64,000 nucleotides of DNA, from IMG/VR virus record IMGVR_UViG_3300045988_097913; one strand, given 5' to 3'. The notes under the pieces are model-generated. The model searched no databases and was not told where the DNA came from. It worked only from the letters and a program-made list of their open reading frames with translations. The stretch is from a virus. The translations under genes and the position numbers were made by a program. This document shows positions 2,677 to 53,626 of the stretch, piece after piece; the first letter of the stretch is position 1, and each line of letters begins with the position of its first letter.

Positions 2677-5600
2677 TTATATTGTTGCTGCTTTTATGTT
2701 TTTATAACCACCAAGTCTAGTTTGGTTATTAATTGTTCTAAGGACTTTGTTTACAATATTATCTGCCTCTTTCTTCAAGGAGTTTACAGTAGAAGCATCT
2801 GCATCACCCTGAATGTTAATCGGCATAGAGATATTGATAGAAGAGTTATCGGAGCTAGAATATGTTCTGGTGTTCACTCTTGTGGATTTAACAGCAGTAT
2901 CCACAGCGCTACCGAATGGACTACCTGTAAATCTATTGCTACTAGAGGATGGTGTTGCATTGTTTGCCCATGTAGGAACAACTGCTTCACCAACTTTTAG
3001 AATAGATACAGTTTCGTCATTACCAAGCCCCAGCATTTTATCAAGCATTGGGTTCTGCTTCTTAACGTAATCAGAACCAGAGTGGTGCTTACCAAATATT
3101 GCCTTACCAATACGATATAAGCCATACCCGGGAATCATCATCTTGGTAAAATTAAGCAGTGTACCACCTAGTTTTTGACCAAAATTCTTGTCTCTGTTTT
3201 TCCATAATGCTATCGTATCTTTCCAATAAGTACCTACTGAGCCAATTGCGTTAGCACCGCCAATAACAACAACTCCCGCAGTACCAAGAGTACCTAGTAA
3301 TCCAGCACCGCCAGCAGCAGTAGCAGCTGCGCCGCCAGCGGCGGCTCCGGTTGCACCAGCAGTTCCTCCAATACCAAGTAAACTACCGATTCCTTTTCCA
3401 AGAGATGTAACGATACCACCTATACCGGATAAGAGTTTGCTTCCTCCTTGTATAACCATGCTTACAACTTGGCTTGCAACATTACCTAAATTAGATATAA
3501 TCCCGCTACCAATGTTCCCAAGAGAGCCAAGTGAATTTATACCATACTGAGTTAATCGCTGAATAAATCCAACGCCACTATTAAATACGGTGTTTATTCC
3601 ATTTAAGACAACAGAACTAATTCCTTTTGCTCCATTTGCAAATTTTTGGATTATGCCTCCACCAGACGATGCCATATCATTTATGACCTTACTAAAGGTT
3701 TTGCCTGTATTTGCAAATGATTTTTCGGTTGCTTTGCCAATATCTTTTAGGCTCTTATAAGCTTTCTTAATATCCCCTGTTACATCAGAATCTATCCCAG
3801 AACCAAATAGTTTATTGTATCCTGTGAGCAATTTTGTTACAGTATCGCTACCGGTATTAATTAGTGCTTTGCTAATTAAATTTTTAACTAGGTCACTACT
3901 AAGAATTTTAATAAATGTATTGAAACCATTTTCGATATTTCCTAGAGTAGTCTCAAATTGTTTCTGAGCATCTTGCAAAGTTTGTTTTTGCGCTTCTATA
4001 GCTTTCTTTTCTGCTTCTATTGTCTTTTCATATTCTGATTTTTCTTTATCAAGAGCATCAATTTTTATATCGTAGTCGTTATCCTTTTGCCAATCAGAAA
4101 GGTCTTTTTCTTTTTGTGCTCTTTCATCAAGAAGTTTTAAACGCTTGGCTTGTGCTTCTGCTGAGTCGTCATATTGCAGTTCCATCAATTGAGCATCAAT
4201 ATCCGCAATAGATTTATTCTTTTCGGCAAGTTCATCAGCGTTATCCATCTCTTCTTTTTGAAGTTTTAGGAGTTCTTTTTGCTGGTCAATTTTGTCTTCA
4301 AAAGCATCTTTTTGGTCATCGAGTTCATCAGAAATCTTATCAAGGTTATCAATCTGAGCATCATATCTGTCAGAAATCTTACCTAACATATCAAACAGGA
4401 AATCACCTGCTTTTTCAAGCAAGTCGATTGCCGTATCAATCATATCTTCGATTTCATCTTGTAATGCTTTGATATTCTTAGAAGCGTCATCATATAGGTC
4501 TTGTTGGGCATCATCAAGTGTACCAGTAGACTTTAGTAAGGCGTTTATAACAGCTTCCACCTGTTTTTCTACTGATTCTCCGCTAATATCACCAAGGTTT
4601 AACGCTTCTGCCATAGCAGCTCTGTAATCTGCGTCATTGGTGATTTTGTCAATAAACTTCTGATAATCAGCTTTTGCTGCATTCAGTGCTTCGTCAGAAC
4701 TCCAAGCGCCATAAATACCATTTTTATATTTTTCTATAACAGCCTTAGCAGAACTTAAATCTTCTTTAGCTAGATTCTTTAGAAGTTTTTGGTACGATTC
4801 TTGAATCGTACCAGCTTGTTTTTGCCATAGCGTTGTTAGCTCTTGAATTTGTTTTTCAACTGGCATATTGCTTATATCAAGATTAAACGCATCAGCTAGA
4901 ACTTTTCTGGCTTTTGGGTCGTTTATAACTTCATTTAAGATTTTGTCATATCTGTCTTGGAACTCTTTGACGACAGTTGGGTCATCCCAGTTAGCATTCT
5001 CAGAATACAGCTGTACAATACTCTTTAGGTTTTGAACTTTTTCTTTGATTGCACTTTCAAATTCTTTTGCAGCTTTATCAGCGGCAGATGTACCAGAAGA
5101 GCCAGATTTCCCGGAAGACTTGCTTTTTGGAGGTGTATAAGTTAGTCCAGCTTTTTGTAATTTGGTTAAAGCATCTAATTGCTCTTGTAAATCGTCCTTG
5201 GTCTCTTGCGCTTGCTTTCCTTGTTGCTCAAGATAATATTTTGTTTTTTGCTGTCCACGATATGTGTCCAAATCCGTCGCAGAGACCTTTTCTCCTGCGT
5301 CTATTCTTTTTTGGATAAGCTTACCAAGAGCAATCATTTCTTGCTCTATTGCTTTTATTCTTTTTTTTGTTTCATCAATCACAGACTGCGTTTGTGTTAT
5401 TTGTTGTTTTTTTGTTTCAATAGCTGTATTAAAATAACCATTCGATAAATCTTGAAGAGAATCAATATTTATTCTAATATGCCCATTTTCTACAGTAAGC
5501 GCACTAACAAGAGACGGTTCTTGCTCAATTAGTTTCTGAACTGTGGCGACACTAAGTTCGCCCTTTTCTTTCATTTCGCTATATGCCGCATTTAGAATCT

Positions 5601-7138
5601 CTTGTTTCTCTGTGACATTTGCAACGGTAGAAATATAATCCTTCATTGCCTCGTCTTGAGTAACGAGAGCATTTGTTGCCTCGGTAGTCCAGTCTGCAAC
5701 CTGTTTGGAAGTTAATTCAAATATTGCTTGATTAACTTGCCCATACATTTGCTGGAACTTCGTAAGGAGTTCTTGCGTTAAATTGTCAATGTTTAAATCA
5801 TTGACATCAATATTCATAGCTTGCGCCCAAGCTGCTTTTATAGAATCATCAGAATTTAGAATTTGTTGTGCAAATTTATTTGCATACGCTTCTGCCGTCT
5901 TTTGCCCGGCTTCGTCACCAGCTTGGACAGCTTCTTGTAACTTATCAGAAATACCAGAAGTGTCAATCAAATTTTTGACTTTAATTGTTTCAAAATTAGA
6001 CGGGTCAAGCGCTAGGTTAACCGTGTCAAGTTGCTCTTGAAGCATCTTATACACGTCAGAACTTGTATCCCCAAGATTTTGTAAAGTTTGCATATCTTGA
6101 AGAATTGTTAATTTCTGATTTTGTAAAGCAAGTGTTTGAGCGTCCATCTGAGAATTAAGTTGTTGTAACCTAGTCGCATAATTCTCATCTGTTTTATCGA
6201 GATTTTGTTTTTCTTTGTTTAGCTGGGCAATATTCGCAAGGAGCTGATTGACGCTTGCCGATTCTGCGTCATAAAGTCTTGGTGCGATACCCACAAAAGA
6301 AGACTGATATTCTTCAACAGACTTATTATCGCCATATCTTGATTTAATTTCTCCCTGAGTTTTTTCTTTTGATACGGCTTTATTCGCCTCATTAACATCA
6401 TTTTGCGTTTTCTGAATTTCTTTTAGGACATCAAGTTGTTCTTGAAGGTTCTCTTTTTGTTGCTCATCTGCTAATGTTAAAGTACCTTTAGAGTTGATTT
6501 CTGAGATTTGTTTGTTAATTTCAGTTATTTTATTATTTGTCTCATCAAGGTTCTGTTGGCTCTCTTGCAAGGCTTCATTTGCTTTTTTGACTTGTGCATC
6601 TGGTTGAGCATCTTTCCAAGCGTTCCATGCAACTTTCGCAACAGCTCCAATGGCGGTAATGGCTGCTACTACACCCCATATTGGTACTGCAACAGAACCT
6701 ATTGTAAATAATGTTGTATTTAGCGCCCCAATCGCACTTGTGGCAGTTATCGCAAGACTTGGAAGTTGCCCAATTAAATTGGATGTCTCCCATATATTTT
6801 TAAATATATTGCCTGCAAAAGCTGTTGCTAAAGCAACACCGAGAGCTTTAATTAGTGGACTTAAAACTGGAATTTTATTTAGTAGAATATTTAGAATTTC
6901 TACGACTTTGGACAAACCATCGTATGCTAATGCAAGGGTTCTATCAAGGTTAGAATCCTGTGCAAATTGTTGAACACTTGCGGTTAATCTATTTTGTGCA
7001 GCTTCAAGAGATTCGTTGTAGACCGTCATCTTTTCAGCAGCAACACCGTTTGCATTTTCTGCAACACTAGTCGCTTCTAGGACACGGTTATAGTCCTCCA
7101 TAGCAGCAATAAAGACGTTGCGCTGTCTTGTGCCCGCC
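2677..7138 (-). CDS. Tape measure protein, exon 4 (C-terminal ~1487 codons)
   Basis: Long coiled-coil ORF with Gly-rich and TM-like segments. The frame stays open upstream of the tracked ATG (..DWAGTRQRNVFIAAMEDY). It joins exon 3 in frame to give ..QLAYVV-AGTRQRNVF. Confidence 0.85.
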
Positions 7139-8425
7139 CAATCTGTTACTTTTGTGACCTATTATTAAAATAGGCGAGAACGGTTCTCCTTAAAAGTGTC
7201 TTTACACTTGACCGCTCTTCTATAAGTTTCCTTATAGTTCAGACTATATTTTCATCCTTATACAACAAAACACATCCCAACAATAAGAGATGTGTTTGAT
7301 ATAAGGAGCATTCCTCCTTAGTCGTTACGATGCAATATTTTTAATAAGGTCTTTGTAATTATATTTGATAACTTCGTTATCTAATTCAATGTAACCTCTG
7401 TCACAATAGAAATAGATTACTTTACACCCATCGTTAAATTTAACAAGAGCAAAATCTTTTAGGCGTTCTAGTATATCATTTTCCGGTAGTTTATCCTTGT
7501 CTAGCACGAAAATGATTTGATAGAAGCCGTTGTCTCTGATAGTATCAATTCTATTTTTTTCTTTAGTATTAAATTGTTCTTGCGTCATTTTGCCAAGAAC
7601 AACATCGAGATTATGTCCAGAGCCATTTATCTCAATATCTAATTTATCAGATTCAACGTAAATATCAAAAAGATATTTTCCAATCCTATGATTTATAACT
7701 CCATTATATAAGTCTGCTAAATACTTCTGGCAGTAACTATATAATCCATTATCACCTTGCATAGACTCCATTTGTTTTTTAGCAAATTCATCTACTTTCA
7801 TAGGGTTATCCTCGCCATATCTTTCGATAAGTGTTTTGATTCTTTTGCTATTTATTTCTTTGTTCAAAATTGGATTTTCACATCCGTATCTTTGAATATT
7901 TGTTGCTCTTGCTTTATCTCTAATATCCTGTGATTGCATTGGGTTGTCTATGTTATACCGCTCCTTAAATGTATCTTTTGCTTTAAGATGACGGCAATGC
8001 ACACAAGCGTCCGTTCTGGGTTTTCCTAAAGATTTATCTAACGATACGTTTCTTGTATAACAAGAATATGTAATGTTATATTCCTCTCCACAATAATCAC
8101 ATTTTACAGAGACTTTTACCGTACTTTTTGGTGTTAAATCCTCAACAGGGACTTGTATTTCATCAAACATTTTTACATTATATCCGAGTGATTTATAATG
8201 AGACATAGAATGGTTGTTTACTTTTACTTTAACGAATTTCGTCAAAAGCATATAATACCACCTCCTATTACTTATTATAATCAATATTTTATATTTGTCA
8301 AGACCTAAAACAAAAATATTGTTATCTCGGTATTCCCTTATTTATACAAACTTAGGGTTCACCGATATAGGAATGTTGTAGTGTTATAAACACCTACGAA
8401 TTACTTCGTATTGTGGCTACTTAAA
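7139..8425 (-). mobile_element. Group I intron (TMP intron 3) carrying a homing endonuclease ORF
   Basis: Exon UGUGGU pairs with internal guide GCCACA, placing U.G at the 5' splice site. P4-P5-like UAUCGGUGAACCCU..AGGGAAUACCGAGAUA. S-like GAAAAUAUAGUCUG at 7240-7257. Ends ..AUUG. Removal restores the TMP frame. Confidence 0.8.
7325..8251 (-). CDS. Intron-encoded homing endonuclease, RYG-x2-NP repeat type with a C-terminal PD-(D/E)XK/Vsr-like module (tentative)
   Basis: SD AGGAGGTGG 6 nt before ATG at 8251 (MLLTKFVKV). Contains CDYCG, tandem (E/K)RYGxxNP repeats, DIEINGSGHN and KMTQEQF. Paralog of 8925-9926. Confidence 0.7.
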   Translation of the reverse strand: MLLTKFVKVKVNNHSMSHYKSLGYNVKMFDEIQVPVEDLTPKSTVKVSVKCDYCGEEYNITYSCYTRNVSLDKSLGKPRTDACVHCRHLKAKDTFKERYNIDNPMQSQDIRDKARATNIQRYGCENPILNKEINSKRIKTLIERYGEDNPMKVDEFAKKQMESMQGDNGLYSYCQKYLADLYNGVINHRIGKYLFDIYVESDKLDIEINGSGHNLDVVLGKMTQEQFNTKEKNRIDTIRDNGFYQIIFVLDKDKLPENDILERLKDFALVKFNDGCKVIYFYCDRGYIELDNEVIKYNYKDLIKNIAS

Positions 8426-8889
8426 ACCACATAAGCCAACTGGTTCTGTTCAAGAGTGCTCATGTTATTCCATTTTGCACCGATTTCATCAAGAACCGTG
8501 CCAATTTCACGCATTTTACCGTTTGTATCAACTAGGGTAATTCCATATTTGGATAGAACTTTATCTGCGTCATTGATTGTGTGGGTTATACCTTGCTCAT
8601 CAACGAGGTCATCCAAATCTACTTTTGCCGTGATTTTTGATATACGCGAGATGATACTCTGCCAAGCAGACCCGATAACTTCTGGTGCTTGTCGAGTCTT
8701 TTCCTCAGAAATAGTAATTAGACCAATTAGTTTATCAAGCCCTACCCCTGCTTGTCCAGCAGAACTAGCAACTTTCTGTAATGCCGTAGAGATTTCGCCT
8801 GTGCTGGCAGCGTAGGAAAGGTCTACTTGCACAAGTTTGTCTACGATTTTGCTTGTATCATCTACAGCTACATTATAGGATTTTGTAAT
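8426..8889 (-). CDS. Tape measure protein, exon 3 (conserved TMP core)
   Basis: ITKSYNVAVDDTSKIVDKLVQVDLSYAASTGEISTALQKVASSAGQAGVGLDKL.. is the conserved tape-measure core pattern. In frame with exons 2 and 4 after splicing. Confidence 0.8.
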
Positions 8890-10361
8890 CTTTGTATTGA
8901 CGGCAGTTCGTTACTCTGTCGTTGTTATTTATAGAATTTTTCTCCTGTGTCAATATTTATTCCATAATAGACACAATTTGATTCTTTTAGCTTTGTAAAT
9001 GCTTCATTCTTAATTTTATATAAATAATTATCATTTGGAAGTTTGTCTGTCTTTGAAATTATTTCAAATTCTTTATAACCATTATCAAGGAAGACCTTTC
9101 TTCTCAACTCTTCGTGTTCATCAAATCCTTCTTGCGTCATTTTGTTGTATGTTACACGAATATTATGCCCAGAACCAGAATACTCGATATAAATATGTTC
9201 GTCTTCAAACAAAATATCCGCCAAATATCCGAACATTGGAGCATTTATTTCACCGCCATATAACTTCCATAAATAAATTTGTTCAGAAGAAGTCATTGCT
9301 CCATTAATGCCATATCTTTCATCTCTTGTTTTTAAGGCACGATTTCTAATTTCTTCATTTTGCATTGGATATTCAGTCCCATATCTTTCAAGAGTTGTTG
9401 CTTTTGCCTTTTGCATAATTTCTTCTTTCAATAACGGATTCTCAACGCCATATTTTTCTAAACAAGTATTTTTAATCTTATTCTTTATTTGTTCCGAGTG
9501 CATTGGATGATTACAACCATATTTTTTCTGCATTGTTTCAAGCGTTTTCTTGTGTACTTCGTCTGACTGTAATCCACATACGCTTCCATATTTTTCAAGA
9601 TTTGTTGCAACCACTTTTTCTCGCACAAAATCTAATTGAGAGACATATTCTTTTCCATATTTAAACATAACAGATTCTTTTCTCTTCTGATTGATACAAC
9701 CTTGGTTACTGCAACAATCTTTTGGATAATTTTTTCTGTGGGTTGCGTAAGAATAATATGCGACAGTGTAATTTGCTCCACAATAATCACATACTACATT
9801 AACGCTACATCTTGCCCATCTTGATACATCAGAAATATTTACTTGAATATACTCATTTATTTTAGCGTCATATCCCAATCTTTTGTATCTTTTGACATTA
9901 GAACCAGTACATAAAATTGATACCATTTTAGAAACTAATATACAAAACACCACCTTAGATATACATAACTCTATAAATAACACTCGCACTTTTATGCGAG
10001 AATAGACTATATCTTCATCTTCATAAAGAAGAGTTTCCCATTTCGATTTAAAGGGATTTCACCTACGCTTAACGATTTGCGCCCTACTTCTATTGCATCT
10101 TTTGAATGCCACGGAATAGTCGTTGAACCTTATCCTTAAATATTGTATCATAAATTATTTTGATAGTAAAGAGTTTTAATAAATATTTAAGAATCTTGGC
10201 TGCGGATTATCCAATCTTTAACTATTTTACTATACTGAGGTAATTATTCTCACCGCCATCTATATTTCTATGATGGTTTAGTTGTTAAAGCTCTAAGGAG
10301 TTTCCCGTCAATTAAAGAAATAAATTATTGTATATATCACTATATACCCTGCCTAAAATCA
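8890..10361 (-). mobile_element. Group I intron (TMP intron 2) carrying a homing endonuclease ORF
   Basis: Minus strand shows P AAUUGACGGGAAAC, Q AAUCCGCAGCC, R GGUUCAACGACUAUU and S GAAGAUAUAGUCU (about 10004-10020). Guide GGCAG pairs with exon CUGCU (U.G). The only in-frame 3' site preceded by G is AAG|AUU at 8890/8889. Confidence 0.8.
8925..9926 (-). CDS. Intron-encoded homing endonuclease, paralog of 7325-8251
   Basis: Contains CDYCG, five or more (K/R)YGxxxP repeats, IEYSGSGHN, KMTQEGF and DKLPND. SD AAGGTGGTG sits 6 nt before an ATA codon at 9941; the first ATG is at 9926. Confidence 0.7.
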   Translation of the reverse strand: MVSILCTGSNVKRYKRLGYDAKINEYIQVNISDVSRWARCSVNVVCDYCGANYTVAYYSYATHRKNYPKDCCSNQGCINQKRKESVMFKYGKEYVSQLDFVREKVVATNLEKYGSVCGLQSDEVHKKTLETMQKKYGCNHPMHSEQIKNKIKNTCLEKYGVENPLLKEEIMQKAKATTLERYGTEYPMQNEEIRNRALKTRDERYGINGAMTSSEQIYLWKLYGGEINAPMFGYLADILFEDEHIYIEYSGSGHNIRVTYNKMTQEGFDEHEELRRKVFLDNGYKEFEIISKTDKLPNDNYLYKIKNEAFTKLKESNCVYYGINIDTGEKFYK

Positions 10362-10470
10362 AGCAGTGAGTTGGTCAGTCGCCTCGCTTGCGTCTAATTG
10401 ACCAACAACAGCCAACGTAGTTGACTGCTTTAGCATCTCCATTGCTTCTTGAGCATTATAACCCTGTCTT
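10362..10470 (-). CDS. Tape measure protein, exon 2 (36-codon mini-exon)
   Basis: Not in the ORF track. Minus strand reads RQGYNAQEAMEMLKQSTTLAVVGQLDASEATDQLTA, part of the TMP core, flanked by stops and by intron cores on both sides. Confidence 0.8.
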
Positions 10471-10828
10471 CAATTTGTTACTCTTAATAATCGCCACTTA
10501 TCAAAAGATTCCATATAGGATTTTCTATGTATTTCTACATAAGTTCTGACTATATCTTTACCATAAAGGTATCTCCCGTTTCAGAGCACTCGCCCTTACA
10601 ATTAGTCGATGAACCTTACTCTTAAATATTATATCATATCTATTAAAATATTTCAATAGCTTTATTATAAATATTTAAGAATCTTGGCTGCTGATTATCC
10701 AATCTTCGATTATTTTACCATGCCTGAATGATTAGTTCAGCCATTATTATATCACTATAATAACTTGGTTATCAAAGCTCTAAGGACTTTCCAGCAATTA
10801 GAGAGATTTTACTTGACCTAGACATTTA
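10471..10828 (-). mobile_element. ORF-less group I intron (TMP intron 1)
   Basis: P AAUUGCUGGAAAG, Q AAUCAGCAGCC, R GGUUCAUCGACUAAU, S AAGAUAUAGUCA. Exon UUGGCU pairs with guide GGUCAA (U.G at the splice site). Ends ..AAAUUG. 358 nt. Confidence 0.85.
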
Positions 10829-12396
10829 AGCCAAGCATCTGCACCCTCTGCAACTGTGGTCGTAGTAGTGCCAAGTTGCTTTGCCAATTTAGTATAACTA
10901 TCAGCCAACGCCACAGTATCTTCATAGCTACCCATTGTAACCATACGAACCTGTGTCATGGCTTCGTTCATATCATAAATTGCAGATGTAAATTCGCTAG
11001 TGATTTTGTTGATGGCTTCCATAGCCACCCGATACTTAATAAAATTTTCTACACTAGATTGAACGGAGTCAGAAAGAGACTTTTGCCCTTCTTTATGTGT
11101 TTCTAAGGTTACATTTGCTTGTCTGAGCGCATCTGTAACTTGTTCCGTCTGGTTTTCTTGATTTTTTTGAACGACAACAAACTGAGCCGTTCCGCTTGTG
11201 CTAGCTTGTACCTCAACTCCGTATTGTTTTAGTGTAGAGACAAGACCGCTCATTGCAGTTTGAGTATCTTTGTATGCTTGAGTATCTTGTTTTCCTTGTG
11301 ATTCAAGAGTTTGCAAAGTCTGATATTGCTTTACATACTCCTTAATGGTACTCAGAAGTTTCTGGTCTTTGGCTTTTGCATTTGTAGCATCAAGAGATGT
11401 GCCAACATTTTTTACAGCCTTTTCAACCTTATCAATATTTTCTTTTGCCTGAACGGCGCTTGTTGCTGTTTTGTCAAAAGTTAATTTACCAGTTGTTTGG
11501 TCAATAACAAGACCATATTGTTTCATTTCAAAAACAATATTTTGAAGCTGTTTTTCTAGCTCTTGATAATACGCAGAACCTTTTTGACCGCTTGTTTCTG
11601 CCTGAGTTATTTTAGCCTGAACAGACTGATATTGATTCAACAAACTAATACTATTTGTTAGATTAGTATTATCCTTTTCCGCAACGGCTTGATTTTGTAG
11701 ATTTTGTTTATAGACATTTCTTTTGGCAATAAGCTCTTGTTCTGCATTGGCAATATTTTGTTTAGCTACCGTGTTTTGTGTGCTTAACTGTTTCTCTAAT
11801 TCTTGCCGCTCTGTGGCGAGTTGTGTCTTCAACGAGGTGTAATATTGGACATTAACAGAATTACCTTGCTGTTTAGCATCCATTATCTTCGTCTCATACT
11901 GGTATCTCTTCTCAAGATTTTGTATAATTTCTTTTTCAATTTGACTTTGTTCTTTTGTTTGTTCTGCACCAGAATAAGTGGACGAAGATGTTCTTAGTTG
12001 CTCATATTGCTTTCTTATATTTATTACTTCTTGAAGACTGCCAGCGGCCTTTATACTTTCTGCTTCTGCAACGTCTATCGCATCTTTTATGCTTTGTTTT
12101 AATGTTATTACTGTTCCATTTGCATCTTTGAAAGACGAAGTAATATTAGACCCAGCCCGTTTGACACTTCCTCCGAGGCTTTCAACTAATTTTGCTACTT
12201 CATTTATATCGTCTTTTTTGAAGTTCTTCGGGAAAGAAAAGCCTTTACCCATTGCTTCGCTTACTTGCGACGATATTTTTTCTGCAACCTCTTTTAGCTC
12301 TTCTTCTAAATATTTTGCACTGTCTGTTACATTTTTAGTATCAAACTCAGGCGTAATTAGAAAGCTAAAAATATCGCTTTGAGATTTATTTGCCAT
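10829..12396 (-). CDS. Tape measure protein, exon 1
   Basis: SD AAGGAGGTGGG before the ATG. Coiled-coil N-terminal region ending ..LAKQLGTTTTTVAEGADAWL, then the tracked ORF reads into the intron. Confidence 0.85.
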
Positions 12397-13698: not shown

Positions 13699-14745
13699 TT
13701 AAATATCGCTCAAACTACCAGTTTTGATATCTTGTTTAATACCATTTTCATCAAAATAATCACCGAGAGAATCTGCAACGTCTAAATCACAATAAGTGGA
13801 TGTGAGGTCTCCTGACCAGCCTACAAGCGCAACAACAACATCATTAGGTAGTTTTGCTTCCTTCATCATAGTAACATATCTATGTCTACAGCAGTGACTA
13901 TAGAAATCAACCCCCATAAAACTTGAGATAGTTCTACAAATACTATCTGCCGTTGAAATAGTTGCCTGACGATAAGTACCGTCATCGTTCTTTACGATGA
14001 ATAACCATTCGCTTTCAATGTTATTTTCTTTACGATATTTCATCCAAAGGTCATAGTACGGCTTAAACTGTTTAATAAATGTAAACTTGTTAAGTAATTT
14101 ACCTTGTTTACCACGACCCTTAGTACGAATTTGTTCTGGTGTCTTATACATACAGCCATAAACAATATCTTTATCAGTAAACCAATCTGCCTTAAATTGG
14201 ACTAATTCTGCCTTTCTTGCGCCGCAGTTCACAGCAAGAGCAAGATAGCAAGCCGCCTGATACCGTTTAGCGGCAACCAATTTATCAAGACAATCTTGAA
14301 TCTGCTCTTCGCTCATAACAGTTTTTTCACGAACCAACTGCTTTACAGGAGTTTCCAGCTTAACAACAATATTTCTAAAATCAGGAAACTCATCATCAAG
14401 AACATTTTCAATATAATCTGACATAGAAGATAGAGATGATTTAATAGTAGAGATTCTATTACTAGACCATCCCATTTCTGTAATTGCATAATTAAAGAAA
14501 CTAACAAGTTGCCGCTTCTTCAAATCCACAAAGAACGTGTCTTTATTATGCAAATAATTCCAACAGAAGAACAGACGAATCATTTGTTCATATTGATAAA
14601 TCGTCTGTGGAGAACGCCCGCCAGTAGTTTTATATGCAAGATAATCTTTCAACAGGTTCTTATTATCTTCGTTAACTTTTGTCCAAATTTCTTCTGTGTA
14701 AATTCTATTATATACAGTTTTTCTTCCCAATTTCGTCACTTCCAA
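13699..14745 (-). CDS. Tyrosine recombinase (phage integrase family)
   Basis: GARKAEL (Arg), HCCRHRY (H-x-x-R) and LVGWSGDLTSTYCD (W/H..Y) in the usual order and spacing. Confidence 0.8.
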   Translation of the reverse strand: MEVTKLGRKTVYNRIYTEEIWTKVNEDNKNLLKDYLAYKTTGGRSPQTIYQYEQMIRLFFCWNYLHNKDTFFVDLKKRQLVSFFNYAITEMGWSSNRISTIKSSLSSMSDYIENVLDDEFPDFRNIVVKLETPVKQLVREKTVMSEEQIQDCLDKLVAAKRYQAACYLALAVNCGARKAELVQFKADWFTDKDIVYGCMYKTPEQIRTKGRGKQGKLLNKFTFIKQFKPYYDLWMKYRKENNIESEWLFIVKNDDGTYRQATISTADSICRTISSFMGVDFYSHCCRHRYVTMMKEAKLPNDVVVALVGWSGDLTSTYCDLDVADSLGDYFDENGIKQDIKTGSLSDI

Positions 14746-35306: not shown

Positions 35307-37598
35307 TTAGCTATCCAAATTTATTTCACGGTCTTCTCCAACGCCAGCCCTTATACATTTAATTTTTCGATTATCGTAATCAACAAATACCAAATCAAAC
35401 GAGCAATCAGCTTTATAGCTCTGATTATTGCCGCAATCAAGAGTGGCAATAATCGGGATACCGCTGTCAACAAGCGTATAATCGGCGTGGCTATGACCAG
35501 CCAACATAAATTCCACCCGTCCTGTAGCATCAACGAAGTTATAGTTTTTTCCGTTCACGCTAATTTCGCTTCGCCGGTTATATGCAGAAGAAATTTGCAG
35601 TAAAAGCCTCGTTAAAGGCTGCACGTCATCCGGCACAGCGCCGGTCGGAATTGTCCGGTAGGAATAGATGTGCACAGCGATTGCTACATGGTCAAATCGC
35701 TCTTTCGTTAGATTTTCAGCAAACCATGCTGCCTGCTCGTATCCGTAATTGTTATCGTAGGTAAGCGCCTGATTCTCTATGCCGGTATCAAAGCAGTAAA
35801 AATGAGTGTTTACTCCCTTGAAATCGTAGTAGGCACGTCCTGTATCTCTGTACCACAAATTACGGATAGCCACCCGGCTTAAACGTGTTGTATATCTTTC
35901 GCTATTAGCATCTTTTTTGCCTTGATAGTTCGTGTCATGGTTCCCAACCAACATATAGAGGTTATCGAACATTGACCGACGGATGCCGTCAATATAGCCC
36001 ATCTTATAGCAAGCCATTTCTGGGACATCGTTATTGCCAAGCCAATCTCCACCGCACAAAACGAAGCTTGTTGGTGTGCTGTTATAGTATTTTTGGATTT
36101 GCGAAACGTACTCTTCCATCATAGGTTCACTACCAATGTCAGTATGCGCAGTAAAGAGATGTGGGTCTGTAAACCATAAGAACGCCTCGCATCGATTGAC
36201 TGTCACAACATTATTTATTTCATCTCCGTTAAACAGTGAAGAATATCTTTTGCAGACTGTGTAAAAATCTTTTGCACCTGTGTGATAAGAAGCGTTGAAA
36301 TCCTCTCTTTGAAATTCATCAGATAGCAGATAACTGTCTTTTTTATCGTTATAGTCGCTTGTAGCATAACTTTCGAGAATTTTACCGCCATATCGATTAT
36401 AATAAACCCAATACAAAACAACAAAATTATCCGGTCTAGCGTTAAGTGTATTTTGAACCTCAAAGGACATACTATCCAAATTAAACCCAAATCGTTTTTC
36501 ACCGCCATTAAGGTTTATGCTAAATGTTTTACTGTCTGCATCCCACAATGCATAAGTGCTACCAATTTTAGCAGCAATATCCTCGAACGTATACGTTATC
36601 CGGCTTTTATTTTTAAAGTTTGCGATATATAACACATTATCGCCTGTCAAAGCAAATCCGTTAGCGTCCATACGTTCTATTTTTGTACTGTTTGTAAGTA
36701 TTACATCAAAATCGTGCGCACTTAAAAAGCGCACTGTATTTGATAGCGGATTGACAAGTTCCGCATAGTGTGCTGCGCAATCTTCAAAAATTTTACCGCC
36801 ATATTGATTATAATAAACCCAGTATAGAGATAAGAAACTGGCTGAACGTTTATTAACAATTGACGCTGTTTGTACTTTTCCAGTCAAAAGGTCAACCCCG
36901 AATTGCTGTTCGCTTCCTAAAGTCAAAGTAAATGTTTTTGTATTCTCATTCCACGTTGTGACATCGGGAAGTTCAGACGCAATATCAGAGAAGTTATATT
37001 CGATTCTACGTTGATTTGAAAGGTTTGAAAGATAAAAACCGGAAGAACCAGCAATGGTAAATCCATTGTTGGTTGCGTTTGGTAATTTCGAATCCTTAAA
37101 TATAACAACGGCATCAAAGTTGTTAGTATTAACTATATCTTCCTTTATCTGACCAATTTCGTCTCCTGTAATTTTTGCATCAGCTGCCTTGCCAGACTTA
37201 GTTAAGCTACTATCAACAACTTCTGTCTCGGTAGAAGTTCCATCATTCTTAGTAACTTTTAGTTTGCCTTCTTCAAAATCGGCATTATTCACAGCAGTAT
37301 TTGCCTTAGTAGAGATATCGCCAAAATCAGTTGTCTTGCCAGAAAAATACCATGCGGTTCCATTCCAAGCATAGTTGCCCTCACCGTTAGTACCATCACC
37401 ATCTGTTACATAATAAAAATCACCAATATTATTATTAGAAGTAGGTAGAGCGCTATATGTGGTAGTTCCTTTAAAATTTAAGCCGCTAACAATATCAGAT
37501 TTATTAGCTTTCTTATTATCTAGTTCTTGAATAGACTGCCTTGCTTTAATATCTTCAAGTTGAATATTATTTATGGTTCTAATTTCATTATATGCCAT
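35307..37598 (-). CDS. Tail-fibre-like protein fused to a C-terminal metallophosphoesterase domain
   Basis: Fibre-type N-terminus (IRTINNIQLEDIKARQSIQEL..GDFYYVTDGDG). Two ~110-aa internal repeats. C-terminal WFTDPHL, GGDWLGNND, GNHD and AGHSHAD motifs. Confidence 0.6.
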   Translation of the reverse strand: MAYNEIRTINNIQLEDIKARQSIQELDNKKANKSDIVSGLNFKGTTTYSALPTSNNNIGDFYYVTDGDGTNGEGNYAWNGTAWYFSGKTTDFGDISTKANTAVNNADFEEGKLKVTKNDGTSTETEVVDSSLTKSGKAADAKITGDEIGQIKEDIVNTNNFDAVVIFKDSKLPNATNNGFTIAGSSGFYLSNLSNQRRIEYNFSDIASELPDVTTWNENTKTFTLTLGSEQQFGVDLLTGKVQTASIVNKRSASFLSLYWVYYNQYGGKIFEDCAAHYAELVNPLSNTVRFLSAHDFDVILTNSTKIERMDANGFALTGDNVLYIANFKNKSRITYTFEDIAAKIGSTYALWDADSKTFSINLNGGEKRFGFNLDSMSFEVQNTLNARPDNFVVLYWVYYNRYGGKILESYATSDYNDKKDSYLLSDEFQREDFNASYHTGAKDFYTVCKRYSSLFNGDEINNVVTVNRCEAFLWFTDPHLFTAHTDIGSEPMMEEYVSQIQKYYNSTPTSFVLCGGDWLGNNDVPEMACYKMGYIDGIRRSMFDNLYMLVGNHDTNYQGKKDANSERYTTRLSRVAIRNLWYRDTGRAYYDFKGVNTHFYCFDTGIENQALTYDNNYGYEQAAWFAENLTKERFDHVAIAVHIYSYRTIPTGAVPDDVQPLTRLLLQISSAYNRRSEISVNGKNYNFVDATGRVEFMLAGHSHADYTLVDSGIPIIATLDCGNNQSYKADCSFDLVFVDYDNRKIKCIRAGVGEDREINLDS

Positions 37599-40102: not shown

Positions 40103-41359
40103 TCATTTAAAAATTACTATCCACGATGAACGAGCTTCTAATCTTTTTAGATTTATAATTTTAGGCGTTTTAAAACCTTTCGGCATATAAGAAAAATCGG
40201 ATTTATTACCATCTATATCCATAAGTATTGCATATCCAGTAGAAAGCCTTCCTTTTATAAAATATTCTTTACCAAAATATCTCACCTTATCAAACTTTCT
40301 GAACCCCTGAATTTTACACGTTGGAATGCGCTGCTCAGAACGAACTCCCTTAGTCTGTTGAAAATCCCCATCTGAAACACATTTCTTTTTGTATAAATTG
40401 CATCTTACGCTAAATTTATTTCCATGTGTTGCAATAACACAAGCGTCATAAAAATGCTCTTTATCTACTCCAAGTTTTAGACGATTTGCCTTTGTTATAT
40501 AACCAAAAGTTTCAATTGCTTCCGGGTAGATTCTAAATAATTGTTTACGAATACTATTCATCTGTGTAGCATATTTTAGATTCCCTTTGACCTTACCTTC
40601 TAATTTAAGACTAATTTTACCACTATGCAACGCCTTATGGCAAGTATGACAAAGTGTAATCAAATTACTTTCTTCGTCTGAACCATGTTTGCTGCGAAAC
40701 ACAATATGATGAACTTCCAGTTTACTGTCTTTATGTTTACCTTTGCAATACTGACAAGTATAATTATCTCGATTTAAAACCATAGCCTTGGTATTTTCAA
40801 ACCCATAATTTGTTCCTTTTTGGTATCCCCAATGTCTTACATTTTCATCTACAAGGCTTGGATTTTTCATAAGGTAAGTATCAAATGTTCCTGTTTCAAA
40901 GACTATAGTAGTTATAGGGAGAATAGATTTGATATATTCTATTTCTTTAACGTGGCTATGGAGTTTACTTACCATCGTGGGACTAAATCTATCCTTCTTA
41001 ATTGAATTTTTGCGATTTAGCCATCTTGCTTTTCTATAACGAGTTTTTCTGCTACGTCTATTTCTGCGGTATTTGGCCCTTTGAGTCATTTTGTCAGTAA
41101 TGTCATTTCTAACAACTACTTCCGACATATAAACTATTTCGCCATCATCGGTAGAAACGGCAGTTCCTATTGCGCCACTTCCTGTATCAACCCCAAGAGT
41201 TAAATCTTGTGTGCAATTAGGAGTCTCGTATAGAAGTTTAATTGTGAATGGACAACGCTTAACTACTTTAGCCTTACCATCTTTTAGAAGATGTTTGACT
41301 TTACCGTGCCTAGTAGTTGGCATAAGCGGTTGTCCATCAATATTCAATACATATACCAT
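40103..41359 (-). CDS. iscB: IscB RNA-guided nuclease (PLMP-RuvC-bridge helix-HNH-RuvC)
   Basis: MVYVLNIDGQPLMPTTRHGKVKHLLKDGKAKVVKRCPFTIKL (PLMP). LGVDTGSGAIG (RuvC-I). RAKYRRNRRSRKTRYRKARW (bridge helix). IVFETG (RuvC-II). CQYCKGK..HHIVFRSKHGSDEESNLITLCHTCHKALH (HNH). HFYDAC (RuvC-III). Confidence 0.9.
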   Translation of the reverse strand: MVYVLNIDGQPLMPTTRHGKVKHLLKDGKAKVVKRCPFTIKLLYETPNCTQDLTLGVDTGSGAIGTAVSTDDGEIVYMSEVVVRNDITDKMTQRAKYRRNRRSRKTRYRKARWLNRKNSIKKDRFSPTMVSKLHSHVKEIEYIKSILPITTIVFETGTFDTYLMKNPSLVDENVRHWGYQKGTNYGFENTKAMVLNRDNYTCQYCKGKHKDSKLEVHHIVFRSKHGSDEESNLITLCHTCHKALHSGKISLKLEGKVKGNLKYATQMNSIRKQLFRIYPEAIETFGYITKANRLKLGVDKEHFYDACVIATHGNKFSVRCNLYKKKCVSDGDFQQTKGVRSEQRIPTCKIQGFRKFDKVRYFGKEYFIKGRLSTGYAILMDIDGNKSDFSYMPKGFKTPKIINLKRLEARSSWIVIFK

Positions 41360-41804
41360 ACTAGACACCCATTTCGTAAAAATAACTCCATTACTTATGT
41401 AATGGTTATGCGTATTGCTATACTATTACCACATAGCTTTTCCGACCTCAACTCGACAATGATATAAAGGCTTTAGCGTATATATCACAAGGCTACTATT
41501 ACTCCAACCTAACTTAAACATATACGACAGAGCGACGGTCTGTTGCGTCAACCGAGGGTGTCATAACCTAAATATCGTAGTTATCATTTCTGGTAACTAA
41601 GTCTGGTAGGCTATTTAATGGAAACTACAAACTCTTATAGTTTGTAGATACCTACAATCATAGAACACAAAGAGCCTATAGCGTCCCACAATTGTACGAC
41701 TACAATTATAAATAATAAAGACCAGACAGGCAAGCCAAAGAACCTGTATCTCCTAACAACGGGTGATAGCAGCTTAGTATCTCTATCCTCTGGTCTTTAA
41801 TTAA
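41360..41804 (-). ncRNA. Candidate IscB omega-RNA region (extent and 5' end undefined)
   Basis: 445 nt without an ORF directly 5' of iscB. Visibly structured: perfect hairpins at 41388-41405 and 41625-41647, and a 10-bp long-range stem between 41717-41726 and 41789-41798. Confidence 0.55.
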
Positions 41805-52703: not shown

Positions 52704-53626
52704 CCTTTATACCGTAGCTTTCGCTATACTTTAACAAGCTTTATCTCAAGCTTCGGAGTAGACTATCTCTTCATCCTTTAAGGATGTGTGGCACTACGAA
52801 ATAATGAATTTCACATTAAATCTCTTATCGTATAAATACGAACCTTAGTCGTTACACCTTGCACTCTAAATGCCTTGGCACGGTATTTTCGTATAGTAAT
52901 TTATATAAAAATCAGATATATTTGAAATAGCACCCACAATACGGCTTGCCAGACCTTGCTCTAGTTGCAATTGCGCTTCTAGCATTTGCTAAACTCCCCT
53001 TTGAGATTCCAGAGTCTATCAAATATTGCGCTGCATCAGTTACATATTTAAATCTGATTTCTTTTTGTCCAATAATTATCATGACGGGTCTAGCCATCCC
53101 ATTATCAAGCCCACAATGTTTTGTTTTCTCCTTGAGTTCTGGATGCTCTTTATAGGTTTTCCTCAGAACGTCTCCGTTTTGATAATTTGGATTAGAACTT
53201 CCCGGCATACTTCTATACCCGTCTGCCGCAATATTGCATATACACTGTTCAATATTTTTATAGAATTTGACAAGGAGTGCTTCTTTTTCTAAAGACTCTT
53301 GTTCTGTTAAGTTATTTATCAAGATGAATGGATAAACTTCGTGATTCAACAAGTAATTATTAAATAAGCTATTTCTTCTTGTTCTGTCACATTCAGAATA
53401 TCTCTTTCCCTTCCCTTGACCAATGTATATCATTTCTCCACTGTCTATATCTTGCCATCCATAAACATAATATTCACTCACGCTCTCACCTCCAATCCTT
53501 TTAATAATATAAAACTTAATTACTACTTAGATTTTTACCGTTAGCCTAATTAAATTAGACACCCTAGATTTCTAGGTTCACCACATTCTATAAATGTATT
53601 ACTACATTCTCGGACAATCAGACTTT
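52704..53626 (-). mobile_element. Group I intron with a GIY-YIG endonuclease ORF
   Basis: Exon CGGAU pairs with guide GUCCG (U.G). S-like GAAGAGAUAGUCUAC at 52758-52776. Ends ..AAAGG. Exons sum to 2823 nt (941 codons). Confidence 0.8.
52912..53481 (-). CDS. GIY-YIG homing endonuclease
   Basis: YVYGW..EMIYIGQGKGKRYSE..R..N..E module. Confidence 0.8.
   Translation of the reverse strand: MSEYYVYGWQDIDSGEMIYIGQGKGKRYSECDRTRRNSLFNNYLLNHEVYPFILINNLTEQESLEKEALLVKFYKNIEQCICNIAADGYRSMPGSSNPNYQNGDVLRKTYKEHPELKEKTKHCGLDNGMARPVMIIIGQKEIRFKYVTDAAQYLIDSGISKGSLANARSAIATRARSGKPYCGCYFKYI

What the first reader, a model, noticed from the sequence alone, without database searches (positions are those of the whole stretch)
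7139..10828. Tape measure gene split into four exons by three group I introns, including a 109-nt mini-exon
The tracked ORFs 10798-12396, 8401-8832 and 2677-7101 are pieces of one gene, together with an untracked 36-codon exon at 10362-10470 (RQGYNAQEAMEMLKQSTTLAVVGQLDASEATDQLTA).

Each intervening segment carries group I core elements. Each 5' junction forms a P1 helix with a U.G pair:
- UUGGCU / GGUCAA
- CUGCU / GGCAG
- UGUGGU / GCCACA

Each intron ends in G. The four exon lengths (1568 + 109 + 464 + 4462 nt) sum to 6603 nt, exactly 2201 codons, giving a ~2200-aa TMP. Its conserved core reads continuously: ..GADAWL-RQGYNAQ..DQLTA-ITKSYNVAVDD..QLAYVV-AGTRQRNVF..

All three introns cluster in the only conserved ~200-aa core of an otherwise divergent protein. 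Three introns in a structural tail gene is unusual.
Basis: partly seen in the sequence, partly recalled or inferred. Interest (0 to 1): 0.75.

Follow-up and report, generated by a model that had tools for sequence, protein, structure and literature searches.

The report
Three group I introns split tape-measure gene
A gut-phage tail tape-measure gene is cut into four pieces by three self-splicing group I introns, two carrying homing-endonuclease genes; the reading is sound, but it is a rich new example of a phenomenon already described in Bacillus prophages and phage Twort.

Summary
On the minus strand, exons 12396-10829, 10470-10362, 8889-8426 and 7138-2677 join into one 6603-nt ORF. It encodes a 2200-aa protein whose PF10145 tape-measure domain reads continuously across the junctions.

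Introns 1 and 2 exceed Rfam's group I gathering score (75 and 66 bits). Intron 3 is missed whole because a 308-aa ORF sits in its P6 loop. Its two halves match the model (33 and 18 bits). An ORF-less homolog matches end to end, with compensatory changes in eight helices.

Each of the three ligated junctions exists as uninterrupted DNA in natural relatives, so the boundaries are exact and the introns are presence/absence polymorphic. Introns 2 and 3 carry DUF7487 endonuclease genes.

This is not a new kind of thing. Group I introns at three sites in tape-measure genes were described in Bacillus cereus-group prophages in 2008. Three introns in one tail gene were described in phage Twort in 1999.

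What is new is the density. Relatives add four more insertion sites, making seven within about 200 codons, with swapped endonuclease cargo.

Splicing itself is inferred, not shown.

The parts
10829..12396 (-). TMP exon 1 (1568 nt; ends in phase 2, ...GADAW-CU|)
   Evidence: ORF list. Contiguous with exon 2 in the intron-less alleles L005/L006/L007 and in proteins P0062-P0065 and P0068.
10471..10828 (-). Intron 1: 358-nt ORF-less group I intron. P1 is UUGGCU/GGUCAA. P10 is UGUCU pairing with exon-2 AGACA. It ends in G. The exon-1 ORF runs into it and stops at 10798-10800.
   Evidence: RF00028 at 75.1 bits, E=3e-17, full model. Boundaries fixed by L005/L006, which read TGGTT(A/G)AGACAGGG uninterrupted. 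About 77% identical to the intron 2 core.
10362..10470 (-). TMP exon 2, 109-nt mini-exon ((L)RQGYNAQ...DQLTA)
   Evidence: Translation. Fused to exon 3 in L001-L004 and in more than 50 proteins of 191-193 aa. Fused to exon 1 in L005.
8890..10361 (-). Intron 2: 1472-nt group I intron. The ribozyme core is 10361-9983. An endonuclease ORF lies 3' of P9. UGA is the first in-frame codon. It ends ...ACAAAG.
   Evidence: RF00028 at 65.8 bits, E=1.9e-14. Exactly this segment is absent from MT835481/L001, which reads ...DQLTA|ITKSYN, and from L002-L004, L006 and L007.
8925..9926 (-). Intron-2 ORF, 333 aa, putative homing endonuclease (DUF7487)
   Evidence: PF24308 E=1.5e-29, above the cutoff. phrog_12131 'homing endonuclease' E=2e-44. 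99% identical to the ORF at the same site in L005.
8426..8889 (-). TMP exon 3 (464 nt; ITKSYN...QLAYV-GU|)
   Evidence: Contiguous with exon 4 in L006 and L008-L010 and in P0059, P0061 and P0070.
7139..8425 (-). Intron 3: 1287-nt group I intron. P1-P5 lie at 8425-~8322. A long-range 10-bp P6 (8321-8312 pairing with 7342-7333) encloses the ORF. J6/7-P7-P3'-P8-P9-P9.1-P9.2 lie at ~7332-7139. It ends ...AGAUUG.
   Evidence: No whole-intron Rfam hit. The 3' half scores 33.3 bits, E=3.9e-7, model positions 105-253. The 5' half scores 18.3 bits, E=0.0067, model positions 1-111. The ORF-less homolog L006:9262-9575 scores 37.8 bits, E=3.9e-8, full model. Helix table with compensatory changes. P6 coordinates verified.
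7325..8251 (-). Intron-3 ORF, 308 aa, putative homing endonuclease (DUF7487). Its stop codon overlaps J6/7.
   Evidence: PF24308 E=3e-13. phrog_12131 E=6e-22. In L005 a LAGLIDADG_2 ORF replaces it within the same ribozyme.
8274..8301 (-). Consensus sigma-70-type promoter TTGACA-16-TATAAT inside the intron-3 P6 loop. It is followed by an AGGAGG ribosome-binding site and the ORF's ATG at 8251.
   Evidence: The only 12/12 match in the 4-kb scan. Sequence confirmed. Function is inferred.
2677..7138 (-). TMP exon 4 (4462 nt; (V)AGTRQRNVF... to the stop)
   Evidence: Followed by a DUF6558/Dit-like tail gene at 1675-2604.

Best explanation
One ~2200-aa tail tape-measure gene of an uncultivated, low-GC (35%) human-gut siphovirus-type phage is interrupted by three group I introns. 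All three lie inside or at the edge of its only conserved domain (PF10145).

Inferred mechanism:
- The gene is transcribed as one pre-mRNA.
- An in-frame stop at or soon after each 5' splice site halts ribosomes so the ribozyme can fold.
- Each ribozyme uses its P1 helix (terminal U.G) and its terminal G to excise itself.
- The four exons are ligated into a 6603-nt ORF.

Introns 2 and 3 carry DUF7487 endonuclease genes. These presumably cut intron-less alleles during co-infection and drive homing. Intron 1 has lost its ORF, or never had one in this genome; a relative (L002) has a DUF7487 ORF at the same site.

What is shown: the anatomy, the ribozyme homology, the exact boundaries and the presence/absence polymorphism.
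What is inferred: self-splicing, endonuclease activity and promoter use.
For: - Rfam RF00028 hits above the gathering score for introns 1 and 2.
- Intron 3: split-model hits. Its ORF-less homolog gives a full-length hit at E=3.9e-8.
- Between the window copy and L006, helices P2, P2.1, P3, P6, P7, P8a, P9.1 and P9.2 are kept through changes on both strands.
- The spliced ORF has no internal stop.
- PF10145 and tape-measure PHROG profiles align continuously across the junctions.
- 122 phage records encode the 310-aa spliced core as one uninterrupted tblastn segment.
- Close relatives lack each intron precisely. Junction 1 is contiguous in L005, L006 and L007. Junction 2 is contiguous in L001-L004, L006 and L007. 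Junction 3 is contiguous in L006 and L008-L010.
- The same intron-2 endonuclease ORF (99% aa), and exon 2 through the intron-3 5' core at 94.5% nt, sit in L005, whose exon 1 is otherwise diverged.
- Endonuclease family hits.
Against: - There is no RNA evidence of splicing.
- Intron 3 falls below Rfam's gathering score even as an ORF-less homolog (37.8 vs 50 bits).
- P10 is clear only for intron 1.
- The endonucleases have no characterised relative: no PDB sequence match, only sub-threshold DUF559 similarity, and a useless single-sequence AlphaFold model (pLDDT 40).
- A related intron in L002-L004 lacks a terminal G at its apparent 3' boundary. Not every element in this gene family is therefore understood.
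Confidence: 0.9

Rival explanations
1. The insertions are non-splicing selfish DNA (free-standing endonuclease genes or dead introns). Under this reading the tape-measure protein is made as separate polypeptides, or the gene is a pseudogene in a defective phage.
For: Gene callers in public data annotate the pieces as separate proteins, for example 193-aa and 532-aa products. Intron 3 fails the Rfam gathering score.
Against: Ribozyme cores are intact and conserved across many independent contigs. Removing them restores the frame exactly. A 36-codon fragment with no start codon or ribosome-binding site of its own cannot be a gene. The same arrangement recurs in dozens of contigs of 60-98 kb, which argues for viable phages.
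Confidence: 0.04
2. The introns splice, but alternative splicing also occurs. Introns 1 and 3 are both phase 2, and exons 2+3 total 573 nt (191 codons). Joining exon 1 directly to exon 4 (exon skipping, as in Twort orf142) would therefore give an in-frame tape-measure protein lacking residues 524-714, that is, most of its conserved core.
For: Arithmetic and the junction translation ...GADAWLAGTRQRNVF. Introns 1 and 3 share the 3'-terminal motif AGUAACA(A/G)AUUG. Exon skipping by phage group I introns is documented (PMC11878797).
Against: Purely arithmetical; there are no RNA data. The deleted segment is the only conserved part of the protein, so such a product may be non-functional.
Confidence: 0.1
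3. The interruptions are inteins or programmed recoding sites rather than RNA introns.
For: None beyond the gene being interrupted.
Against: Each insertion has in-frame stops at or within 10 codons of its start. Each matches the group I RNA model. The embedded ORFs are not in frame with the exons.
Confidence: 0.005

Closest known systems
TMP-IVS1/IVS2/IVS3 group I introns in tape-measure genes of Bacillus cereus-group prophages (Tourasse & Kolsto 2008, PMC2504315)
   Same: Group I introns of phage type inside a tape-measure gene, at three sites. Paralogous ribozymes sit at different sites with a retargeted P1 (their IVS1/IVS2 are 80% identical; here introns 1 and 2 are ~77%). Different introns occupy the same or adjacent sites. 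Presence/absence varies among related phages.
   Different: By the strain descriptions in that paper, individual Bacillus genes carry one or two of the three sites; here one gene carries three. The lineage here has at least seven sites within ~200 codons. The host lineage is an uncultivated gut phage. The endonuclease cargo is DUF7487 or LAGLIDADG. Whether any insertion site is homologous to IVS1-3 was not tested.
Staphylococcus phage Twort orf142 (Landthaler & Shub 1999; identified as a tail tube gene in PMC11878797)
   Same: [quoted passage not shown]
   Different: A different gene (tube versus tape measure) and a different phage family. Twort splicing was shown experimentally; here it is inferred.
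T4 td intron / I-TevI
   Same: The endonuclease ORF is looped out of P6 and closed by a long-range stem. The ORF is apparently served by its own promoter inside the intron (the T4 comparison is from my own knowledge). The window has a 12/12 promoter and AGGAGG in the intron-3 P6 loop.
   Different: The endonuclease family differs (DUF7487 versus GIY-YIG), and so does the host gene. Promoter use is untested.
EDxHD / Vsr-like homing endonucleases (I-Bth0305I, PMC3239194)
   Same: Intron-encoded phage endonucleases with N-terminal repeated helical motifs. The C-terminal D...E.(D/S)G.GH motif resembles Vsr/DUF559-type nucleases (alignment; DUF559 E=0.01-0.03).
   Different: No significant sequence match to the 3R3P chain, either with a single sequence or with a profile. 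The DUF559 hits are below Pfam's cutoff. Membership is not established.

Membership tests
Group I intron (RF00028) | Match to the covariance model of the catalytic core (P3-P9) | tested here: met
   Intron 1 scores 75.1 bits and intron 2 scores 65.8 bits against a gathering score of 50.
Group I intron (RF00028), intron 3 | Match to the covariance model of the catalytic core | tested here: inconclusive
   There is no whole-intron hit. The halves score 33.3 bits (E=3.9e-7) and 18.3 bits (E=0.0067). The ORF-less homolog L006:9262-9575 scores 37.8 bits, E=3.9e-8, over the full model. All are below the gathering score of 50 but significant by E-value. Helices P1-P9.2 pair fully in three variants, with compensatory changes.
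Group I intron | P1 helix formed by the 5' exon end and an internal guide sequence, with U.G at the splice site | tested here: met
   Read directly: UUGGCU/GGUCAA, CUGCU/GGCAG and UGUGGU/GCCACA. The last is also chosen by Rfam's alignment.
Group I intron | Terminal guanosine (omega-G) at the 3' end | tested here: met
   G at 10471, 8890 and 7139.
Group I intron | Precise removal restores a continuous host gene that matches intron-less homologs | tested here: met
Group I intron | GTP-dependent self-splicing | not testable with these tools
   This needs an in vitro transcript or RNA from infected cells.
Phage tail tape-measure protein (PF10145 PhageMin_Tail) | Pfam domain above the cutoff, very long protein, and position between the tail chaperone region and the distal tail protein | tested here: met
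   PF10145 at 98.5 bits against a cutoff of 33.2. phrog_4211 and phrog_14917 tape-measure profiles. A DUF6558/Dit-like gene lies downstream. The two upstream ORFs have no family hit.
DUF7487 (PF24308) putative homing endonuclease | Pfam match above the cutoff | tested here: met
   104 and 50.7 bits against a cutoff of 27. No paper mentions this family.
EDxHD / Vsr-like homing endonucleases | Vsr-like catalytic domain with the conserved E, D, H, D residues | tested here: inconclusive
   The motif D237...E248.(D/S)G.GH254 is conserved. DUF559 similarity is sub-threshold. There is no PDB hit. The structure model is unusable.

The most novel reading that the evidence does not exclude
The conserved core of this phage lineage's tape-measure gene is an exceptionally dense landing pad for introns. 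There are at least seven insertion sites (codons 523, 559, 587, 641, ~661, 714, 716) within ~200 codons across close relatives.

Related ribozymes appear to have moved between sites. The intron-3 lineage sits at two sites that share only the 5'-exon pentamer GUGGU, as expected for retargeting through P1 or reverse splicing.

The same ribozyme has exchanged its P6-loop cargo between a DUF7487 ORF and a LAGLIDADG ORF. DUF7487 would then be an uncharacterised homing-endonuclease family.
Probability: 0.5. Interest if true: 0.55.

Novelty: new member of a known kind. Interest (0 to 1): 0.4.

Why it matters
Annotation: public annotations call the pieces 'chromosome segregation ATPase', 'minor tail protein' and hypothetical proteins. 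Tail-length or host-range inferences for this abundant gut-phage lineage are wrong unless the gene is spliced in silico.

Biology: the lineage offers a natural series of alleles with 0-3 introns per gene at seven sites, with swapped endonuclease cargo. That is good material for studying intron homing, ectopic transposition and endonuclease-ribozyme modularity, and for characterising DUF7487.

It does not change what is known in principle about phage introns.

Tried and rejected
- Whole-intron Rfam detection of intron 3 failed at the gathering score and at E<=1. Searching the two halves separately and finding an ORF-less homolog resolved it.
- A 15-mer scan of IMG/VR for more intron-3 relatives returned 51 loci. 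Only four were real close relatives and five were partial. That was too little diversity for a statistical covariation test, so I relied on a manual three-sequence helix table.
- Assigning the endonucleases to a solved family failed. phmmer and profile searches of the PDB gave nothing significant. A single-sequence AlphaFold model had pLDDT 40 and was not searched further.
- tblastn alignments that seemed to extend exon 3 into intron 3 (aa 715-725) were checked on the DNA and are spurious extensions.
- I could not find a consistent 5'/3' splice-site pair for the site-716 intron of L002-L004.
- The P7-motif match at 37130 lies inside an ordinary ORF and was dismissed as chance.
- The Twort paper PMC22036 is not held. 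It is cited only through PMC11878797.
Full report
**What is there.**
All features lie on the minus strand. The ORF list shows three large tape-measure pieces (12396-10798, 8832-8401, 7101-2677). Two further ORFs of 354 and 319 aa lie between them.

Joining 12396-10829, 10470-10362, 8889-8426 and 7138-2677 gives 6603 nt, which is 2201 codons with only the terminal stop. The product carries one PF10145 (PhageMin_Tail) domain at aa 503-711. That domain is matched as a single stretch across junctions 1 and 2. Tape-measure PHROG profiles align continuously over aa ~480-785, across all three junctions. A Dit-like DUF6558 gene follows downstream. The gene is therefore a siphovirus-type tape-measure gene.

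**Are the intervening segments group I introns?**
Rfam RF00028 matches 10883-10525 (75.1 bits, E=3e-17) and 10370-9983 (65.8 bits, E=1.9e-14). Both cover the full model and exceed the gathering score of 50. The model ends at P9, and both introns continue beyond it. Intron 1 has a 54-nt tail to the G at 10471. Intron 2 continues through a 333-aa ORF and a 35-nt tail to the G at 8890.

Intron 3 (8425-7139) gives no hit when searched whole. Searched as halves, 7362-7220 matches model positions 105-253 (33.3 bits, E=3.9e-7).

The reason for the miss is a ~990-nt insertion carrying a 308-aa ORF. It is looped out of P6 and closed by a perfect 10-bp stem, CAAUAUUUUU (8321-8312) pairing with AAAAAUAUUG (7342-7333).

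Two relatives confirm this architecture:
- In L005 the same ribozyme ends (98-99% identical) enclose a LAGLIDADG_2 ORF instead. There P6 is closed by a different 9-bp stem, UUUUAUUAU/AUAAUAAAA.
- In L006 an ORF-less homolog (9262-9575; 74-77% identical in the two conserved blocks, 69% end to end) matches RF00028 end to end (37.8 bits, E=3.9e-8).

Comparing the window copy with L006, helices P2, P2.1, P3, P6, P7, P8a, P9.1 and P9.2 are all fully paired but differ on both strands. I count intron 3 as a group I intron. The formal caveat is that no version reaches Rfam's gathering score.

**Splice sites.**
Read directly from the sequence, each 5' exon ends in a U that pairs with a G of the guide sequence. 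Each intron ends in G.

Intron 1 has a clear 5-bp P10 (UGUCU pairing with AGACA at exon-2 positions +2 to +6). P10 is not evident for introns 2 and 3.

In-frame stops follow each 5' splice site. This is usual for phage introns, where it keeps ribosomes off the ribozyme:
- intron 1: 10 codons in
- intron 2: immediately (UGA)
- intron 3: 8 codons in

**Independent proof of the boundaries.**
The only close GenBank relative, MT835481 (a human-faecal phage, ~92% identical over exons 3-4 and intron 3), lacks exactly 10361-8890. It reads ...DQLTA|ITKSYN....

A search of 5.8 billion proteins returned more than 50 variants of a 191-193-aa product equal to exon 2 fused to exon 3. It also returned products spanning junction 1 (P0062-P0065, P0068, P0060) and junction 3 (P0059, P0061, P0070). 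All align without gaps at the junctions.

At the DNA level, each 150-nt ligated junction is contiguous in natural contigs:
- J1 in L005, L006 and L007
- J2 in L001-L004, L006 and L007
- J3 in L006 and L008-L010

In more distant phages, 122 records encode the 310-aa spliced core as one uninterrupted tblastn segment.

**Mobility.**
Intron occupancy differs among close relatives:

| Source | Sites occupied |
|---|---|
| window | A + B + C |
| L001, L024, L039 | A + C |
| L002-L004 | A + C' |
| L005 | B + C |
| L006 | D + E + F |

The intron-2 endonuclease ORF is 99% identical in amino acids between the window and L005. The DNA from exon 2 through the intron-3 5' core aligns at 94.5% between them. 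Their exon 1 sequences are otherwise strongly diverged.

Introns 1 and 2 are paralogs, ~77% identical over 211 nt. The intron-3 lineage occupies two sites (codon 714 here, ~661 in L006). The 5' exons at those sites share only GUGGU. This is what P1-guided retargeting would predict, though that is an inference.

The embedded ORFs hit PF24308 (DUF7487) above its cutoff and PHROG families annotated as homing endonucleases. Five such ORFs share an N-terminal CxxC element, repeated (K/R)YG..NP motifs and a C-terminal D...E.(D/S)G.GH motif. There is only sub-threshold DUF559 similarity and no PDB match. No paper in the library mentions DUF7487.

**Expression of the endonucleases (inferred).**
A perfect TTGACA-16-TATAAT promoter with AGGAGG lies just upstream of the intron-3 ORF, inside the P6 loop. 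Near-consensus extended -10 promoters lie in the P6 loops of intron 1 and of the related L006 intron. A weaker match (9/12) lies in the P6 loop of intron 2. Promoter-like sites as a class are not enriched in this AT-rich region (22 found against 18.2 expected). Only the 12/12 site stands out.

**Comparison with what is known.**
- Tourasse and Kolsto (2008) described group I introns at three sites in the tape-measure genes of B. cereus-group prophages. Their account includes paralogous introns with a retargeted P1 and different introns at one site (PMC2504315).
- Bastillevirinae polymerase and terminase genes carry up to three introns.

The finding is therefore a new, well-supported member of a known kind. 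Three things go beyond precedent:
- three introns in a single tape-measure gene
- a 109-nt internal exon
- seven sites within ~200 codons at the lineage level, with cargo swapping

**Open points.**
- Splicing is not demonstrated.
- Because introns 1 and 3 are both phase 2 and exons 2+3 total 573 nt, skipping both would stay in frame. Whether that occurs is unknown.
- The site-716 intron of L002-L004 has a convincing 7-bp P1 but no G at its apparent 3' boundary. I could not explain this.

Noticed in passing
window 52704-53626 (-); exons 55297-53627 and 52703-51552: A fourth probable group I intron (923 nt) with a GIY-YIG-type ORF (53481-52912). It splits a 940-aa gene (phrog_8308) whose homolog in Enterocloster phage PMBT24 is annotated as an RNA polymerase. 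The predicted junction rebuilds ...SDAD|FDGD..., that is, a DFDGD motif. From my own knowledge, this resembles the catalytic motif of YonO-like RNA polymerases. Homologs are contiguous across the junction. P7/P8/P4-P5-like elements are visible by eye.
   Followed up: partly
window 40103-41368 (-) and 41441-41655 (-): A HEARO RNA (RF02033, 75.7 bits against a gathering score of 83, E=1.9e-13) lies directly upstream of a 421-aa RRXRR + HNH protein. This is an IscB-type OMEGA element carried by the phage.
   Followed up: partly
L006:7408-7721, 7884-9190, 9262-9575; L002-L004:~6553-7926; L005:9257-10292: Relatives carry group I introns at four further sites in the same tape-measure core: after codons 587, 641, ~661 and 716. 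At site 714, L005 has a LAGLIDADG_2 ORF in place of the DUF7487 ORF, inside the same ribozyme.
   Followed up: partly
L002/L003/L004 ~6553-7926: The site-716 intron has a 7-bp P1 (CGCCGGU/GCUGGCG). Its inserted DNA ends ...AACAAA, directly before the exon sequence ACAAGACA. There is thus no terminal G that keeps the reading frame. Its 330-aa ORF hits HNH-endonuclease and D5-like regulator PHROGs. This is unexplained.
   Followed up: partly
window 13699-14745 (-): A tyrosine recombinase/integrase-family gene (PF00589 E=6.7e-11; phrog_1) sits inside the tail module. It lies just upstream of the two chaperone-position ORFs and the tape-measure gene, and it is conserved there in relatives.
   Followed up: no
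window 10775-10746 (-) and 10656-10628 (-): There are two near-consensus (11/12, with TG) promoter-like sites inside the ORF-less intron 1. The second lies in the P6 loop, in the same position as a promoter-like site in the related ORF-bearing intron of L006. It may be a relic of endonuclease expression.
   Followed up: no
window 10829|7138 (virtual junction): Introns 1 and 3 are both phase 2, and exons 2+3 total 573 nt (191 codons). Skipping both exons would give an in-frame protein reading ...GADAWLAGTRQRNVF....
   Followed up: no
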